Shown here in pieces: positions 782 to 38,148 of a DNA stretch of 64,000 nt. The DNA lies in sequence record OP292222.1; one strand, given 5' to 3'. The notes under the pieces were generated by a model that did not search any database, had not been told where the DNA came from, and saw nothing but the letters and a program-made list of their open reading frames with translations. A program made the translations under genes and the position numbers. Source of the DNA: Escherichia phage Esco_phi_B-01. Position 1 is the stretch's first letter. Every line of letters begins with the position of its first letter.

Positions 782-1120
782 ACCCTTTAAACGGCTTCTT
801 ATTGGAGCCGCCTTCAGACTTCGCTCATACGGTAATATTTGTATTAAGCAGACTGAAACCGAATATAAAATGGTTGGGCAGTATTCCGATGAAATTTTTC
901 GGATTGAGCCTGTAGCCAAGGTTTGGGTGGATTCACATCAACTTAAGAAGTGGTGGCAACGATGATAACATGGACTGCCGGTTAATGAATGACGAATACG
1001 AAAAAGTTTAAGAGGTGTATTATGACTATTGATGATGTAGATATTCTTACTTCCGACGAATTAAAACGATTGGGTAATATATTTCAAGACGAACATCCTG
1101 ATTTTTAAGAGGTCATATGA

Positions 1121-1294
1121 ATGACGAATTCGACGGATTTTGATAAGATTAAATCTGACAAAAATGAGATGATACTTAAATTTGAAGCTGCTCGTATTAA
1201 AGCGGAAAATGAAGGTACTATTACCTATAAGCCTATCAAGTTCAGGTCTTCTCATGAACCTCTGTACGGGGTATTAATTGGTAAAGGAGCTTAG
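1121..1294 (+). CDS. small hypothetical protein (57 aa)
   Basis: ATG preceded by aagaggtc; stop codon lies inside the terminator hairpin at 1285-1306. Confidence 0.35.
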   Translation: MTNSTDFDKIKSDKNEMILKFEAARIKAENEGTITYKPIKFRSSHEPLYGVLIGKGA

Positions 1295-1306
1295 GCTCCT
1301 TTTTTG
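1285..1306 (+). terminator. intrinsic terminator (aggagc-ttag-gctcct + TTTTT)
   Basis: perfect 6-bp GC-rich stem followed by T run. Confidence 0.6.
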
Positions 1307-1334
1307 CTTTATATTCGGATGATAAAATGAATTT

Positions 1335-1952
1335 ATGAAATACATCACATACCTGACAATATATTCCGGGACTAAGCTTCCACCGTTTTATATAGGGTCC
1401 ACCACTTTAGAGAAGCATTTGAATGGATACCACGGAAGTGTCCTTTCTAAAGCGTATAAAGAAATCTATAAAAACGAGCTTTTAGAGCATCCTGAACTAT
1501 TTGACTCATGTATTGTAAGTGAACATCCCACAAGAGAAGAGGCTTTAGAAGCTGAAAGAATGTACCAGTTAAGAACTGATGCAGCTCAAAATCCTTTATT
1601 CTTTAATAGGGCTATTGCCGCCCCTAAAGGGTTCTTCGGGCTTTCGCTACCTAAAGAGCATCACCCTCTTTACGGCTCTCATAATGCCAAAGGGTATATT
1701 CATTCCTATAATCCTGTTACATTAGAACAGACCTTTGCACCTACGGTCCCTGAAGGATATGTAGAAGGTCGTTCTCCTAATTATAAAGCATCTAGTCACA
1801 ATAAGGGCAGGAAGTGGTATAATAACGGAATAGAACATAAACTGATTAATCCGTCTAATATTCCTGATGGATGGGTCAAAGGCAAACTTCCGGGCTCGGC
1901 TTCTAAAGCCGCCTCTAAAATGTGGGAACGAATACGTAATGAAAATTCTTAA
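1335..1952 (+). CDS. GIY-YIG family endonuclease-like protein (seg-like homing endonuclease candidate)
   Basis: N-terminal YLTIYSG...FYIGST motif followed by conserved R, E (EEALEAERMY) and N; basic C-terminal region; overlaps gene 47 start by 14 nt. Confidence 0.55.
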   Translation: MKYITYLTIYSGTKLPPFYIGSTTLEKHLNGYHGSVLSKAYKEIYKNELLEHPELFDSCIVSEHPTREEALEAERMYQLRTDAAQNPLFFNRAIAAPKGFFGLSLPKEHHPLYGSHNAKGYIHSYNPVTLEQTFAPTVPEGYVEGRSPNYKASSHNKGRKWYNNGIEHKLINPSNIPDGWVKGKLPGSASKAASKMWERIRNENS

Positions 1953-2961
1953 TACAGGCGACTGGCACCTTGGAGTTAAGAACGACGACCCTTGGGTCCA
2001 AAACATTCAATTGACCGGCATTAAAGATGCTATCAATTATTCTAAAGCAAATGGTATTACTGTATGGATTCAATACGGTGATATTTTTGATGTCCGTAAA
2101 GCCATTACTCATAAGTGTATGGAATTTGCTCGGCATATTTCAGATTTGCTTAAAACCAATGGCATCACCATGTATACCATTGTTGGTAACCATGATGCCC
2201 ACTACAAAAACACCCTAACTCCGAATGCTGCTTCTGAAGTTCTGGGTAAATATGACCATATCAAGGTTATTGAGAAACCTACTACGGTTAACTTTGATGG
2301 CACCGAAATTGATTTGATTCCATGGATGTGTGAAGAAAACACGACTGATATCATGGACCATATCAAAAATACCACAGCAGATTTCTGTATTGGTCATTGG
2401 GAATTAAATGGTTTCTATTTCTATAAAGGAATGAAATCTCACGGTTTAGAACCTGATTTCCTTAAAAAGTATAAGCAAGTTTGGTCAGGCCACTTCCATA
2501 CTATTTCTGATGCAGCAAACGTCAAGTACATTGGTACTCCATGGACCCTTACTGCAGGCGATGAGAACGACCCTCGTGGTTTCTGGATTTTCGATACCGA
2601 AACTCATAAAATGGATTTCATCATTAACGAAACCTGTTGGCATCGTAAGATTCATTATCCTAATGCGACTATCGATTACAAAGATTTTACAAATATCGCA
2701 GTTCGTGTTATAGTCGATAAAATCGATGACGGCCTTACTAAGTTTGAATCAGAACTTGAAAAGGTTGTTCACTCTTTACGTATTGTGTCTAAGGTAGATA
2801 ATAGTGTTGATATCGATGATTCTGAAGAGGAAGATGAAGTTAAATCCCTCTTGGATATGATGTATGATTATATCGACGCCCTTCCTGATGGCCACACTGA
2901 AGAAGACGTTAAAGCCCTTAAGACTATGGCCGCACAACTTTATAATGAGGTTACACGATGA
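1939..2961 (+). CDS. 47: gp47 recombination nuclease subunit (Mre11-like phosphoesterase)
   Basis: starts MKILNTGDWHLG, calcineurin-like motifs (GDWH, GNHD, GHxH); matches T4 gp47 in length and position. Confidence 0.9.
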   Translation: MKILNTGDWHLGVKNDDPWVQNIQLTGIKDAINYSKANGITVWIQYGDIFDVRKAITHKCMEFARHISDLLKTNGITMYTIVGNHDAHYKNTLTPNAASEVLGKYDHIKVIEKPTTVNFDGTEIDLIPWMCEENTTDIMDHIKNTTADFCIGHWELNGFYFYKGMKSHGLEPDFLKKYKQVWSGHFHTISDAANVKYIGTPWTLTAGDENDPRGFWIFDTETHKMDFIINETCWHRKIHYPNATIDYKDFTNIAVRVIVDKIDDGLTKFESELEKVVHSLRIVSKVDNSVDIDDSEEEDEVKSLLDMMYDYIDALPDGHTEEDVKALKTMAAQLYNEVTR

Positions 2962-3221
2962 CTTTAGATGAATTCAAAAAATCGGGACTTGAACTGGAAC
3001 ACGACTGTATAGTTATTGACGATGATGGCCAACCTAGTACAATTAAGTTCTGGTTTGAAGCCGTGAGCACTCGTGATACCGGCGAGCTTATTAAAGTTTA
3101 TGTTGCTACCGATTGGGCTGTAGAATTTAGCTTTAATGTAATGGTAGATGATACTCCAGAAACATTAATTCATATGGCTGAATCATGCATCAAGGATGCG
3201 TATAACGATGAAGACTTTTAA
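2958..3221 (+). CDS. hypothetical protein (87 aa)
   Basis: ORF track; ATGA start/stop overlap with gene 47. Confidence 0.5.
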   Translation: MTLDEFKKSGLELEHDCIVIDDDGQPSTIKFWFEAVSTRDTGELIKVYVATDWAVEFSFNVMVDDTPETLIHMAESCIKDAYNDEDF

Positions 3222-35937: not shown

Positions 35938-38148
35938 ATGATTATTGAAACCGAAAAAGAACAAATCATTGGCAACGGCTCTAAGTCCACAGGATTTACT
36001 ATCCAGGCCTCGCCTAAGGTCTTTAAAATTCTTTCATCAGACCTTTATAGTAATAAGGTACGTGCTGTAGTTCGTGAACTAATTACCAACATGATTGATG
36101 CTCATATTCTGAATGGTAATAAAGAACGTTGGAAAGTACAGGTTCCTGGTAAGCTCGACCCTCGCTTTGTGTGCCGTGATTTCGGACCAGGCATGAGTGA
36201 TTTCCAGATTCGTGGTGATGAAAACGAAACCGGTTTGTATAACTCTTATTTCGCATCATCCAAAACCGCTTCTAACGATTTCATTGGTGGCTTTGGCCTT
36301 GGTTCTAAATCTCCGTTCAGTTATACAGAAACGTTTAATATTACCTCATGGCACAATGGTGAAGTTCGCGGATATGTAGCTTATATGGATGGCGATGGTC
36401 CACAGATTAAACCTACTTTCGTAGAACCTATGCAGCCAGGTGATAAAACAGGTATCGAAATCACGGTTCCTGTCGATGAAGAAGATTTCCGTAAGTTTGA
36501 AACTGAAGTTCGATATATCATGCGTCCGTTCATTGGACTCGGCGATGTTGACGGTGTTGAAGTTGATTATTTCCCTGAATTTGATGACTACTATGCTGTA
36601 ACAGATACAGGTTACAGAGATTTCGAACGTTCAGGACTTTATGCTGTTTATGGCGGTATTGTTTATCCATTGGATTCTGCTTATAATAAAGGCACATGGA
36701 TGCGTACTCGCCATGATGTAGTTTATATTAAGTTCCCTATGGGCTCGCTGGATATTGCTCCGTCTCGTGAAGTGTTGTCTCTTGATAAACGTACGATGGA
36801 AAATATTGCAACCCGTATCGAAGCACTGGATGCAGTGGTCTTTAAAAACGATACACAAGAATGGGTTGAATCTGATAATCCACGCCATGTTTATCGCGAC
36901 CTTTCTAACCTTGGTTACAGTGCTCGTGACTATCTTACCAAAAAAGGTGGGACTAGCCTGTTTACTACAGAAAAATTGACATACGAGAAATTGTACCAAC
37001 GTTATACACTTCAAAACGACCTTATTAATTTGGGTGTTGTTTACGAAATCGTTTCAGACCCACGTTTGAAACGAATTAAGCCGAGTGGTAATACTTCTTC
37101 GGTGGCAGGACTTAGTAGCCTATTAGGCATTAATAATAAAGAAATCCATATTGTTTATGATGATGAAAAGGGTCGTGTGCCACTAGTTCGAGGACTTTGG
37201 GCTCTAGCAATGGACAACAGTGCTTCGGCTAAGAAAATTGTTAAAGAGAACAATATTCCTAAATACGGAACTGACCTTATTTTCGTCGACCCAAATTCAA
37301 TGCTGCAAATGCAACAACTTGAAAAGGTTAAAGAACTTTTTAAAGGTGATACTATTCATTTTTATAAAGTCTCTGAACTGAATAAAATTGTTAAGCCATG
37401 GATTCCGGTTACTGTTCGTTCATCCGAACCTCGTCCTAAAACACCAAGTGCTTATCGTTGGTTCATTAAAGACGGGCGTTGGCAACAAGAGACCTTATAC
37501 TTAACTGCTGCAGAAGCAGAAGAAATTACAGGGTACGTATTGTTTGGTAGTCGTTCTGATATCATGGGAATGGATGAAGCTTATGGTATCTTTGACATCA
37601 ACACCACTACCATGTGTCGTATGGCTAATTTGATTGGTGCTACCGAATTCCATATCATTCGCCCTCAGATTGCCAAAAAGATTAAAAAGTTAGGCCAATG
37701 TGAATGCTTGATGGAAACCACGTTGGAAGCTTATGCCGAAGCACTAGATGCTGTAGATATTGATGAATATATTGGTAGTAATACCCGTGCAAGGTATTAT
37801 CTTGAAATCATTGCTAAGTTCCCTGAGCTTGGTTTTATGACCAAATATTTCAGTGATAAGCCGGTGTCTGAAGCATATACTCGTCTGAGTAATTTCTATG
37901 ATATATTCCGTTATATGAATTTCCATGGGTATATCACTGATGACAAACTTTCTGTTATCAAGAAAATCTGTAACACGACGTTCAATACGTTAACCAATAA
38001 TGCTTCAAGTAACAATGATAAAATGACTGTACAGTTTGAATCCGATTACCATTTAGTTTCGGACTACATGTATCGTCGTGGAACATCCATTACCGAGGCT
38101 TCTGTAGCTCAAATCGTTAAATTCATGAAAGCCGTGGAAGCGGCTTAA
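35938..38148 (+). CDS. rIIA: rIIA protein (GHKL-ATPase-like N-terminal domain)
   Basis: 736 aa; N-terminal region VRELITNMIDA, GFGLGSKS typical of rIIA; followed by rIIB. Confidence 0.85.
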   Translation: MIIETEKEQIIGNGSKSTGFTIQASPKVFKILSSDLYSNKVRAVVRELITNMIDAHILNGNKERWKVQVPGKLDPRFVCRDFGPGMSDFQIRGDENETGLYNSYFASSKTASNDFIGGFGLGSKSPFSYTETFNITSWHNGEVRGYVAYMDGDGPQIKPTFVEPMQPGDKTGIEITVPVDEEDFRKFETEVRYIMRPFIGLGDVDGVEVDYFPEFDDYYAVTDTGYRDFERSGLYAVYGGIVYPLDSAYNKGTWMRTRHDVVYIKFPMGSLDIAPSREVLSLDKRTMENIATRIEALDAVVFKNDTQEWVESDNPRHVYRDLSNLGYSARDYLTKKGGTSLFTTEKLTYEKLYQRYTLQNDLINLGVVYEIVSDPRLKRIKPSGNTSSVAGLSSLLGINNKEIHIVYDDEKGRVPLVRGLWALAMDNSASAKKIVKENNIPKYGTDLIFVDPNSMLQMQQLEKVKELFKGDTIHFYKVSELNKIVKPWIPVTVRSSEPRPKTPSAYRWFIKDGRWQQETLYLTAAEAEEITGYVLFGSRSDIMGMDEAYGIFDINTTTMCRMANLIGATEFHIIRPQIAKKIKKLGQCECLMETTLEAYAEALDAVDIDEYIGSNTRARYYLEIIAKFPELGFMTKYFSDKPVSEAYTRLSNFYDIFRYMNFHGYITDDKLSVIKKICNTTFNTLTNNASSNNDKMTVQFESDYHLVSDYMYRRGTSITEASVAQIVKFMKAVEAA

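What the first reader, a model, noticed from the sequence alone, without database searches (positions are those of the whole stretch)
1335..1952. GIY-YIG endonuclease-like gene overlapping the start of gene 47
A 205-aa ORF with a clear GIY-YIG N-terminal module and a basic C-terminal extension ends 14 nt inside the recombination nuclease gene 47. Free-standing GIY-YIG homing endonucleases (seg genes) are mobile in T-even phages; insertion next to an essential recombination gene is typical of such elements.
Basis: partly seen in the sequence, partly recalled or inferred. Interest (0 to 1): 0.45.

Follow-up and report, generated by a model that had tools for sequence, protein, structure and literature searches.

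The report
Seg-type homing endonuclease gene upstream of gene 47
This is an intact, uncharacterised member of the well-known family of free-standing "Seg" GIY-YIG homing endonuclease genes of T4-like phages, sitting as an optional cassette at the start of the recombination nuclease gene 47; it is an ordinary example of a known kind of selfish phage gene.

Summary
A 205-aa ORF (1335..1952, +) ends 14 nt inside gene 47 (ATG 1939). Its N-terminal half is a divergent GIY-YIG nuclease domain. Pfam scores it below threshold, but the predicted fold matches the I-TevI catalytic domain best, and BLASTP finds T4 SegG and SegE. Its basic C-terminal half carries two SegE-like repeats.

The window is a JS98-like (Dhakavirus) phage. 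Close relatives have either the 47-aa gene 47.1 or nothing in this slot. Only about 12 of about 91 related records carry the ORF. Homologues occupy the same slot in Tequatrovirus, Mosigvirus, Marfavirus and an Erwinia phage.

Comparison with ORF-less relatives places the cassette from just after the -10 element of a MotA-type middle promoter (about 1329-1334) to nt 15 of gene 47 (1953). The only flank differences fixed between carriers and non-carriers are four synonymous changes in gene 47 codons 3-5.

The copies are under strong purifying selection (dN/dS 0.02-0.06).

Best reading: an active Seg-type homing endonuclease. It probably cuts ORF-less genomes near the start of gene 47 and is copied in by recombinational repair. 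Cleavage and homing were not tested. This is a new member of a known kind, of low to moderate interest.

The parts
1283..1305 (+). Intrinsic-terminator-like hairpin plus T-run after gene a-gt.2. It is shared by genomes with and without the ORF.
   Evidence: Terminator scan, 8-bp stem AAAGGAGC/GCTCCTTT followed by a T-run. Conserved in the 12 relatives compared, with compensatory variation in VR5.
1305..1328 (+). MotA-type middle-promoter-like site: MotA box TGCTTTA (1305-1311), an 11-nt spacer, and -10 TAAAAT (1323-1328). It is the shared promoter of the gene 47 slot. The predicted transcription start falls at about the ORF's ATG.
   Evidence: Pattern match. Only 5 strict matches occur on the + strand of the whole 64-kb window. 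Present in the ORF-bearing, 47.1 and empty alleles; replaced only in Ec2-ASingh. Function is inferred from the T4 middle-promoter consensus (my own knowledge), not shown here.
1329..1953 (+). The optional cassette as delimited against relatives. The left junction lies just after the -10 element (1329-1334). The right junction lies at nt 15 of gene 47.
   Evidence: Alignments with JS98, EcWhh-1, WG01 and VR5 (47.1 allele) and dhaeg and dhabil (empty allele).
1335..1952 (+). Seg-like endonuclease ORF, 205 aa.
   Evidence: (PHROG 10820 at E=2e-92; PHROG 314 'homing endonuclease' at 4e-16).
1335..1622 (+). N-terminal GIY-YIG catalytic domain (aa 1-96). Family-invariant residues are Y6, Y10, G12, P16, Y19, G21, Y32, G34, E48, F56, A70, E74 and N91.
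1623..1691 (+). Low-confidence linker (aa 97-119) containing a degenerate NUMOD3-like HPLYGSHN.
   Evidence: pLDDT 53-58 over aa 101-120. The family profile matches the NUMOD3 region of the I-TevI DNA-binding domain 1I3J weakly, at E=0.045. Many relatives carry Pfam NUMOD3 at this position.
1692..1886 (+). Basic C-terminal DNA-binding region. It holds two beta-hairpin repeats, aa 120-146 (...VPEGYVEGR) and aa 159-184 (KWYNNG...IPDGWVKGK), of the type found in T4 SegE.
   Evidence: BLASTP alignment to SegE extends over aa 19-192 (SegE sequence printed in the same call). Predicted hairpins at 122-135 and 160-171 with pLDDT about 90. pI 9.66. DNA binding is inferred.
1815..1823 (+). TGGTATAAT, an extended -10-like sequence inside the ORF (codons W161-Y162-N163). 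It is a possible embedded promoter for gene 47.
   Evidence: Promoter scan. Identical in short-form copies from Dhakavirus, Marfavirus and Tequatrovirus, and broken in long-form copies. This is a weak hint only.
1939..1952 (+). 14-nt overlap between the ORF's 3' end (..R N E N S *) and gene 47 (M K I L N..). No Shine-Dalgarno sequence lies in front of the gene 47 ATG.
   Evidence: In ORF-less alleles gene 47 is coupled to 47.1 by an ATGA overlap, or has its own GAGG.
1947..1953 (+). Four synonymous substitutions in gene 47 codons 3-5 (nt 9, 10, 12 and 15 of gene 47; ATT CTT AAT against ATA TTA AAC). These are the only right-flank positions fixed between short-form carriers and non-carriers. 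They are candidate target-site immunity changes, or simply the cassette's 3' end.
   Evidence: Column-by-column comparison of 5 short-form carriers against 6 non-carriers over 1.9 kb.
1939..2961 (+). Gene 47 (Mre11/SbcD-like recombination nuclease subunit), the neighbour and probable target gene.

Best explanation
The ORF encodes a free-standing, Seg-type GIY-YIG homing endonuclease. It combines a SegG-like catalytic domain with a SegE-like C-terminal DNA-binding domain made of two beta-hairpin repeats. The gene is an optional cassette of about 620 bp inserted exactly in the slot between the gene 47 middle promoter and codon 5 of gene 47.

Proposed mechanism (inferred, not shown): when a carrier phage and a non-carrier relative infect the same cell, the enzyme binds and cuts the non-carrier DNA at or near the a-gt.2/47.1-47 junction, that is, the 5' end of gene 47. 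The break is repaired by T4-type recombination-dependent replication using the carrier genome as template. This copies the cassette, together with variable lengths of flank, into the cut genome.

The carrier would be protected in two ways: the insertion splits the site, and four synonymous changes sit in gene 47 codons 3-5.

Expression is probably kept low. The ORF has no Shine-Dalgarno sequence, and its ATG lies at about the predicted +1 of the middle promoter. Gene 47 has lost its own ribosome-binding context and overlaps the ORF by 14 nt, so it is probably translated by coupling to the ORF.
For: Shown:
- The ORF and the overlap exist as described.
- Both motif tyrosines, the catalytic Glu (E74, aligned to I-TevI E75) and the Asn (N91) are invariant in 64 homologues.
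- BLASTP gives SegE at E=3e-10 over 198 aa and SegG at E=7e-7. Both are experimentally proven homing endonucleases (PMC2988022, PMC2330249).
- Distribution is sporadic. About 12 of about 91 Dhakavirus-like records carry the ORF, and near-identical relatives have 47.1 or an empty site.
- The junctions are sharp, and no flank positions are diagnostic apart from gene 47 nt 9, 10, 12 and 15.
- The same slot is occupied in Tequatrovirus, Mosigvirus, Marfavirus and an Erwinia phage. In Tequatrovirus fPS-90 the insert sits exactly at the T4 gene 47 ATG, flanked by ATGAAAA repeats, and again four synonymous changes are confined to gene 47 nt 9-18.
- dN/dS is 0.02-0.06.
- The ORF copies of IME08, QL01 and 005 are nearly identical (dS 0.015-0.08) while the adjacent gene 47 differs strongly (dS 0.24-0.50). 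005 and KIT01 carry a divergent patch centred on the ORF/47 junction.

By analogy: SegE cuts in the intergenic region where segE is inserted and homes with almost 100% efficiency (PMC2330249).
Against: - No cleavage or homing data exist for this protein or any close homologue, and none was found in the literature.
- The Pfam GIY-YIG hit is below threshold.
- The arginine corresponding to I-TevI R27 is not obviously present. Position 27 is K or R in 59 of 64 homologues, which is only a plausible substitute.
- The four 'immunity' substitutions lie within or next to the ORF's own 3' end, so their linkage to the ORF is expected regardless of any role in target recognition. The Dhakavirus carrier codons (ATT..AAT) equal the T4 non-carrier codons, so no universal immune sequence exists.
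- The ORF does not sit in a clear island of high identity in most pairwise comparisons.
- GC content is the same as the flanks, so there is no sign of recent arrival from outside the T4-like gene pool.
Confidence: 0.8

Rival explanations
1. A retained, effectively domesticated gene. The protein is kept because the phage benefits from it, not because it homes. Possible benefits are serving as the translational leader for essential gene 47, excluding markers of competing phages, or stimulating local recombination or amplification.
For: Purifying selection is as strong as on the essential gene 47 (dN/dS 0.02-0.06 against 0.02-0.04). The slot is conserved across at least four genera, with copies only about 61-67% identical, which implies long residence. 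Gene 47 has no Shine-Dalgarno sequence of its own in carriers and overlaps the ORF. Base composition is fully ameliorated. A beneficial role for a Seg enzyme has precedent: SegB promotes amplification of anti-defence loci (abstract of PMC13096335).
Against: Most close relatives do without the ORF, and the empty allele has an ordinary Shine-Dalgarno sequence for gene 47. This is the pattern of an optional selfish element. Continued homing among a recombining population also maintains purifying selection. The two readings are not mutually exclusive.
Confidence: 0.15
2. A catalytically inactive relic that survives only as a DNA-binding protein or as a spacer for gene 47 expression.
For: No clear counterpart of the canonical GIY-YIG arginine. 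Sub-threshold Pfam score. The short form lacks the extra C-terminal module seen in the 251-284-aa forms of 005, KIT01 and AV115.
Against: The GIY and YIG tyrosines, E74 and N91 are invariant across 64 homologues, and the whole N-terminal domain is under purifying selection. The proven enzymes T4 SegE and SegG score as badly or worse in Pfam (21.6 bits and no hit). The printed sequences of T4 SegA-E show no Arg between the YIG and GYMGSG motifs either.
Confidence: 0.05

Closest known systems
T4 SegE (free-standing GIY-YIG homing endonuclease, 205 aa, located just upstream of uvsW)
   Same: Identical length. 28% identity over 198 aa at E=3e-10. Both have two C-terminal repeats ending in (V/I)P(E/D)G(F/W/Y)(V/I)KG(R/K/M). 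The geometry is the same: the endonuclease gene abuts the 5' end of a DNA-metabolism gene in the same orientation. SegE cuts in the intergenic region of phages that lack it and homes with almost 100% efficiency (PMC2330249).
   Different: Different locus (hoc/inh-uvsW against a-gt.2-47). The catalytic domain is of another subtype: SegE has the DGYLGSG motif and matches Pfam SegE_GIY-YIG, while this ORF has GYHGS and is closer to SegG. The target sequence is unknown.
T4 SegG (free-standing GIY-YIG homing endonuclease located between genes 59 and 32)
   Same: Best match for the catalytic domain: 33% identity over 105 aa at E=7e-7, sharing PP(F/Y)YIGS and EAER.YQL...NP.(F/Y)FN. Like this ORF, SegG escapes Pfam GIY-YIG entirely. 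It lies directly upstream of an essential recombination/replication gene.
   Different: Unrelated C-terminal half. SegG cleaves at a distance from its insertion site, inside gene 32 (title and table of PMC2988022). Here the only carrier-linked differences lie within 15 nt of the junction.
I-TevI (intron-encoded GIY-YIG homing endonuclease of the T4 td gene)
   Different: This ORF is not intron-encoded. It has no zinc finger or helix-turn-helix. The helix carrying R27 is shorter here and carries K27 instead. The sequence relationship is undetectable by phmmer.
Unnamed homologues at the same slot in other T4-like phages (for example Klebsiella phage EI 'SegE homing endonuclease', Yersinia phage fPS-90 g059c, Escherichia phages Killian and AV115)
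   Same: 61-67% identical proteins immediately upstream of gene 47. The short forms also overlap the start of gene 47.
   Different: In Tequatrovirus, gene 47.1 is retained and the ORF sits between 47.1 and 47. Mosigvirus and some Dhakavirus copies have a different, longer C-terminus. They are variously annotated as hypothetical, 'HNH endonuclease' (a mislabel) or homing endonuclease, and none has been characterised.

Membership tests
GIY-YIG nuclease superfamily | 'GIY' and 'YIG' beta-strand motifs with conserved tyrosines and glycine | tested here: met
   The motifs are YITY (Y6) and FYIGS (Y19, G21). Y6, Y19 and G21 are invariant in 64 homologues.
GIY-YIG nuclease superfamily | Catalytic glutamate (I-TevI E75) and downstream asparagine (I-TevI N90) | tested here: met
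   E74 and N91 are invariant. hhalign aligns E74 with I-TevI E75, at E=9e-4 but only 23% probability.
GIY-YIG nuclease superfamily | Conserved arginine in the first helix (I-TevI R27) | tested here: inconclusive
   There is no invariant Arg. Position 27 is K in 49, R in 10 and N or I in 5 of 64 homologues. R67 is conserved in 60 of 64 but lies elsewhere in the sequence. T4 SegA-E likewise show no Arg at this point in their printed sequences.
GIY-YIG nuclease superfamily | Alpha/beta fold with a three-stranded antiparallel sheet flanked by helices | tested here: met
GIY-YIG nuclease superfamily | Pfam PF01541 gathering score | tested here: not met
   17 bits against a cut-off of 22.6. The bona fide T4 SegE (21.6 bits) and SegG (no hit) also fail, so this criterion is insensitive for Seg proteins.
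Seg-type free-standing homing endonuclease genes of T4-like phages | Significant sequence similarity to characterised Seg proteins | tested here: met
   SegE at E=3e-10 and SegG at E=7e-7. SegA, B, C, D and F are not significant.
Seg-type free-standing homing endonuclease genes of T4-like phages | Stand-alone ORF between conserved genes, co-oriented with them and not inside an intron or intein | tested here: met
   The ORF lies between a-gt.2 and 47 on the same strand.
Seg-type free-standing homing endonuclease genes of T4-like phages | Sporadic presence or absence among closely related genomes, with precise junctions | tested here: met
   There are four allele types at the slot (empty, 47.1, short ORF, long ORF). 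The junctions lie at the -10 element and at gene 47 nt 15. Petrov et al. list no homing endonuclease genes in JS98 or JS10 (PMC2993671).
Seg-type free-standing homing endonuclease genes of T4-like phages | Site-specific double-strand cleavage of the allele that lacks the gene | not testable with these tools
   Needs an in vitro cleavage assay on JS98- or dhaeg-type DNA.
Seg-type free-standing homing endonuclease genes of T4-like phages | Endonuclease-dependent preferential inheritance (homing or marker exclusion) in mixed infection | not testable with these tools
   Needs phage crosses. The only indirect hints are mosaicism and a divergent patch centred on the junction.

The most novel reading that the evidence does not exclude
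The cassette has taken over the translation-initiation slot of the essential gene 47. In carriers, gene 47 has no ribosome-binding site of its own and starts 14 nt before the endonuclease stop codon. Meanwhile the endonuclease ATG sits at the predicted +1 of the middle promoter, which would make that message leaderless. If gp47 synthesis really depends on ribosomes that translate the endonuclease ORF, or on a promoter embedded in it (TGGTATAAT at 1815-1823), two things follow. The selfish gene would be 'addictive', because simple deletions would cripple the recombination nuclease. Its own expression would also be tied to that of the very nuclease (gp46/47) that processes the breaks it makes.
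Probability: 0.3. Interest if true: 0.45.

Novelty: new member of a known kind. Interest (0 to 1): 0.25.

Why it matters
The finding adds an uncharacterised Seg-family enzyme, with a SegG-like catalytic domain and a SegE-like binding domain, at a locus that is empty in T4 itself.

JS98-type phages were listed as free of homing endonuclease genes in 2010. This shows that the group does carry them sporadically.

The near-isogenic carrier, 47.1 and empty alleles give a clean natural system for mapping a Seg target site. They could also be used to test translational coupling of a homing endonuclease gene to an essential recombination gene.

The finding has practical value for annotation. Many database copies are labelled 'HNH endonuclease' or 'hypothetical', and in IME08 the ORF is missed and gp47 is wrongly extended.

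It does not change any concept.

Tried and rejected
- Sequence searches of the PDB, with the single protein and with a 64-sequence profile, did not find any GIY-YIG catalytic domain. They gave only a weak NUMOD3-region hit to the I-TevI DNA-binding domain. Fold comparison was needed.
- NCBIfam gave nothing useful.
- hhalign against I-TevI alone aligned only the E75 region, with low probability.
- I looked for a co-conversion tract or an island of high identity around the ORF. Apart from four positions at the junction, flank haplotypes are mosaic and independent of ORF presence. Pairwise identity profiles show no island, except for the divergent junction patch in 005 and KIT01.
- Two IMG/VR scans for the carrier-type and non-carrier-type gene 47 5' sequences returned four contigs whose lengths equal those of the isolate genomes QL01, VR5, IME281 and JS98, so they added no independent sample.
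- No T4 late-promoter (TATAAATA) or second MotA-type site lies in or around the ORF.
- tblastn found no second seg-like gene in the 64-kb window.
- The alternative long ORF 1867..2961, an N-terminally extended gp47 as annotated in IME08, was rejected. The extension is the out-of-frame 3' end of the endonuclease ORF, and all other annotations start gp47 at MKILNTGDWH.
- The 'HNH endonuclease' label of PHROG 10820 and RefSeq was rejected on fold grounds.
- Four literature searches found no paper describing a seg gene upstream of gene 47.

Full report
**1. Observation.**

The window encodes, on the + strand, an ATG-initiated ORF at 1335..1952 (205 aa; stop TAA at 1950-1952). The next gene begins at ATG 1939 (MKILNTGDWHLG...). 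It is gene 47, the Mre11/SbcD-like subunit of the T4-type recombination nuclease (Pfam Metallophos; PHROG 100 at E=2e-134). The C-terminal half of the ORF is basic, with pI 9.66 against 6.41 for the N-terminal half.

The gene order is 55, a-gt.5, a-gt.4, a-gt.3, a-gt.2, ORF, 47, 46.2, 46. This order, together with 97-98% nucleotide identity to JS98-like phages, identifies a Dhakavirus (T4-like, Straboviridae).

**2. Is it a GIY-YIG nuclease?**

At the sequence level the signal is weaker than 'clear':
- Pfam PF01541 gives 17 bits (E=0.007), below the 22.6-bit cut-off.
- NCBIfam finds nothing.
- Neither the protein nor a 64-sequence profile finds a solved GIY-YIG domain by sequence.

Three independent lines nevertheless settle the assignment.

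(a) BLASTP against all T4 Seg proteins and I-TevI/II finds SegE (28% identity over 198 aa, E=3e-10) and SegG (33% over the N-terminal 105 aa, E=7e-7). Both are experimentally established homing endonucleases (PMC2988022, table; PMC2330249).

(c) In the family alignment, Y6 (GIY), Y19 and G21 (YIG), E74 and N91 are invariant. hhalign places E74 on I-TevI E75.

The one canonical residue I could not place is the arginine of I-TevI (R27). Position 27 is K or R in 59 of 64 sequences, and R67 is conserved in 60 of 64. Without model coordinates I cannot say which of these reaches the active site.

This is not disqualifying. T4 SegE itself is below the Pfam cut-off (21.6 bits) and SegG gets no Pfam hit. 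The printed sequences of SegA-E also lack an Arg between the YIG and GYMGSG motifs.

The PHROG and RefSeq label 'HNH endonuclease' for this family is a mislabel.

**3. Architecture.**

- Residues 1-96: the catalytic domain.
- Residues 97-119: a low-confidence linker with a vestigial NUMOD3-like HPLYGSHN.
- Residues 120-146 and 159-184: two related beta-hairpin modules ending in VPEGYVEGR and IPDGWVKGK. T4 SegE has the same pair.

The protein therefore combines a SegG-like catalytic domain with a SegE-like binding domain.

The C-terminus is modular across the family:
- Some Dhakaviruses (005, KIT01) and Mosigvirus AV115 have 251-284-aa forms that diverge after KWYNNG.
- Many more distant relatives share only the catalytic domain and carry NUMOD3 tails.
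- One such paralogue lies elsewhere in Dhakavirus IME281.

**4. Presence, absence and boundaries.**

At least four states occur at this slot in Dhakavirus:

| State | Phages |
|---|---|
| Empty, 52 nt between the a-gt.2 terminator and the gene 47 ATG | dhaeg, dhabil |
| The 47-aa membrane-protein gene 47.1 | JS98, EcWhh-1, WG01, VR5; also T4 |
| Short endonuclease ORF | window, IME08, NC-G, QL01, Ec2-ASingh |
| Long endonuclease ORF | 005, KIT01 |

Roughly 12 of about 91 Dhakavirus-like records carry the ORF. Petrov et al. listed JS98 and JS10 as having no homing endonuclease genes (PMC2993671).

*Left junction.* All alleles share the terminator hairpin (1283-1305) and a MotA-type middle-promoter-like site: TGCTTTA at 1305-1311, 11 nt of spacer, TAAAAT at 1323-1328. 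This is one of only five strict matches on this strand of the window. The alleles diverge immediately after the -10 element. No upstream position is diagnostic of ORF presence.

*Right junction.* In 1.9 kb compared across 5 short-form carriers and 6 non-carriers, the only fixed differences are gene 47 nt 9, 10, 12 and 15 (window 1947, 1948, 1950, 1953). All four are synonymous in gene 47: ATT CTT AAT in carriers against ATA TTA AAC in non-carriers. From nt 22 onwards the haplotypes are mosaic. For example, the window is identical to the empty-site phage dhaeg over nt 22-192.

The cassette is thus about 1329/1334 to 1953.

**5. Other genera.**

Homologues that are 61-67% identical occupy the same slot, directly upstream of gene 47. 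They occur in Tequatrovirus (fPS-90, Killian and roughly a hundred further records in the 60-80% identity band, which also includes other genera), Mosigvirus (the AV1xx phages), Marfavirus (Klebsiella phage EI) and Erwinia phage FBB1.

In fPS-90, gene 47.1 is retained. The insert begins exactly at the position of the T4 gene 47 start codon, so the ORF's ATGAAAA replaces that of gene 47 and inherits the ATGA overlap with 47.1. Gene 47 is regenerated 601 nt downstream behind a second ATGAAAA. Once again the only differences from T4 in the first 70 nt of gene 47 are four synonymous changes, at nt 9, 10, 15 and 18.

The element is therefore old, site-faithful and widely but patchily distributed. 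Its GC and GC3 content equal those of the flanks.

**6. Selection and mosaicism.**

Among Dhakavirus copies dN/dS is 0.02-0.06 at dS of about 0.3. This is as tight as for gene 47, so the protein is functional.

The ORF copies of IME08, QL01 and 005 are almost identical (dS 0.015-0.08), while their gene 47 sequences differ strongly (dS 0.24-0.50). 005 and KIT01 carry a divergent patch of about 500 nt running from ORF codon 165 to gene 47 nt 400. The patch is centred on the junction, as expected if breaks and repair from heterologous donors occur there.

This is suggestive only. Most pairwise profiles show general mosaicism rather than an island.

**7. Mechanism.**

Best explanation (confidence about 0.8 for the class, about 0.45 for the target location): an active Seg-type homing endonuclease.

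- *Cleavage (inferred).* In mixed infections the enzyme cuts non-carrier genomes at or near the 47.1/empty-47 junction. This is inferred by analogy with SegE, which cuts in the intergenic region where its gene is inserted (PMC2330249). It is also inferred from the confinement of carrier-linked differences to the junction.
- *Repair (inferred).* Recombination-dependent repair copies the cassette into the cut genome. The neighbouring gene product gp47, with gp46, is listed as a possible participant in homing in T4 (PMC2988022).
- *Self-protection (inferred).* This would come from disruption of the site by the insert, plus the four synonymous changes.

There are two caveats about those changes. 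They lie in or next to the ORF's own 3' end, so their linkage to the ORF is automatic. And the Dhakavirus carrier codons equal the T4 non-carrier codons, so there is no universal 'immune' sequence.

*Expression (inferred).* There is no Shine-Dalgarno sequence before ATG 1335, which lies about 7 nt after the -10 element, at roughly the predicted transcription start. This fits the weak or absent translation-initiation regions reported for half of the T4 free-standing endonuclease genes (PMC2988022).

Gene 47 has no Shine-Dalgarno sequence in carriers. In the 47.1 allele it is coupled by an ATGA overlap, and in the empty allele it has GAGG. In carriers it is therefore probably translated by coupling to the ORF. 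An extended -10-like TGGTATAAT inside the ORF (1815-1823) is conserved in short forms from three genera but broken in long forms. This is a weak hint of an embedded promoter, a feature known for segG, segA and segE (PMC2988022).

**8. Rivals.**

(a) A beneficial, domesticated role (confidence about 0.15): a coupling leader for gene 47, exclusion of competitors, or stimulation of recombination as reported for SegB (PMC13096335). Strong selection and old residence fit this. But the ORF is dispensable in most relatives, and this reading is compatible with homing.

(b) An inactive relic (confidence about 0.05). The invariant catalytic residues and the purifying selection argue against it.

(c) A chance ORF, excluded.

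**9. Novelty and verdict.**

This is a new member of a known kind. I found no paper that describes it. Database records call it hypothetical, 'HNH endonuclease', 'homing endonuclease' or 'SegE'. IME08 omits it and extends gp47 instead.

The universality condition for refutation is not met. Activity remains to be shown.

Interest is low to moderate (0.25). The locus is a tidy natural system for mapping a Seg target and for testing coupling between a selfish nuclease gene and an essential recombination gene, but it is conceptually expected.

Noticed in passing
window 2958-3221 / 3196: The window has no gene 46.1: gene 46.2 runs directly into the start of gene 46. JS98, IME08, QL01, dhabil and WG01 have a 46.1 gene of about 210 nt between them, whereas EcWhh-1, NC-G and dhaeg, like the window, lack it. 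This is a second presence/absence polymorphism only 1 kb from the finding.
   Followed up: partly
window 989-1108: An unannotated small ORF (39 aa; an internal ATG at 1022 is preceded by AAGAGGTG) in the a-gt.3/a-gt.2 spacer. This stretch shows indels relative to IME08, NC-G and Ec2-ASingh.
   Followed up: no
window ~235-635 (a-gt.5/a-gt.4): This stretch is only 49-62% identical to IME08 and NC-G but 99-100% identical to Ec2-ASingh, while neighbouring stretches are above 90% identical to all three. It is a sharply bounded mosaic block.
   Followed up: no
L012 (Ec2-ASingh) 1216-1460: In the closest database relative the P47 promoter region is replaced. An extra ORF of about 75 aa lies between the a-gt.2 terminator and the endonuclease gene, whose first ~11 codons are also different (MFIVYLTIYGGD...). 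The rest of the ORF is 97% identical to the window.
   Followed up: partly
L014 (vB_EcoM_005) and L015 (KIT01), endonuclease codon ~165 to gene 47 nt ~400: A divergent patch of about 500 nt (55-81% identity to IME08) is centred on the endonuclease/gene 47 junction. It includes a different, longer endonuclease C-terminus. Sequence on both sides is 94-100% identical.
   Followed up: partly
L001 (IME08, NC_014260) 1741-2358; window 1867-2961: The IME08 record does not annotate the intact endonuclease ORF. Instead it extends gp47 by 27 codons upstream, and the same spurious 364-aa ORF exists in the window. RefSeq and PHROG call the family 'HNH endonuclease', although the fold is GIY-YIG.
   Followed up: yes
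NC_055740 (IME281) ~167465-167754; protein P0031: A paralogue elsewhere in a Dhakavirus that lacks the gene 47 cassette. It has the same catalytic domain (67% identity over the N-terminal 57%) fused to a NUMOD3 C-terminus. This points to domain shuffling among seg genes. No such copy lies in this window.
   Followed up: partly
window 1815-1823: TGGTATAAT (an extended -10 consensus) lies inside the endonuclease ORF at codons W161-Y162-N163. It is identical in short-form copies from three genera, but reads TATAAC or TATACC in the long forms.
   Followed up: partly
L006 (fPS-90) 2480-3120 vs L009 (T4) 36400-36660: In Tequatrovirus the endonuclease gene is inserted exactly at the T4 gene 47 start codon, downstream of a retained 47.1 and flanked by ATGAAAA direct repeats. 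The result is a chain of overlapping ORFs: 47.1, then the endonuclease, then 47.
   Followed up: yes
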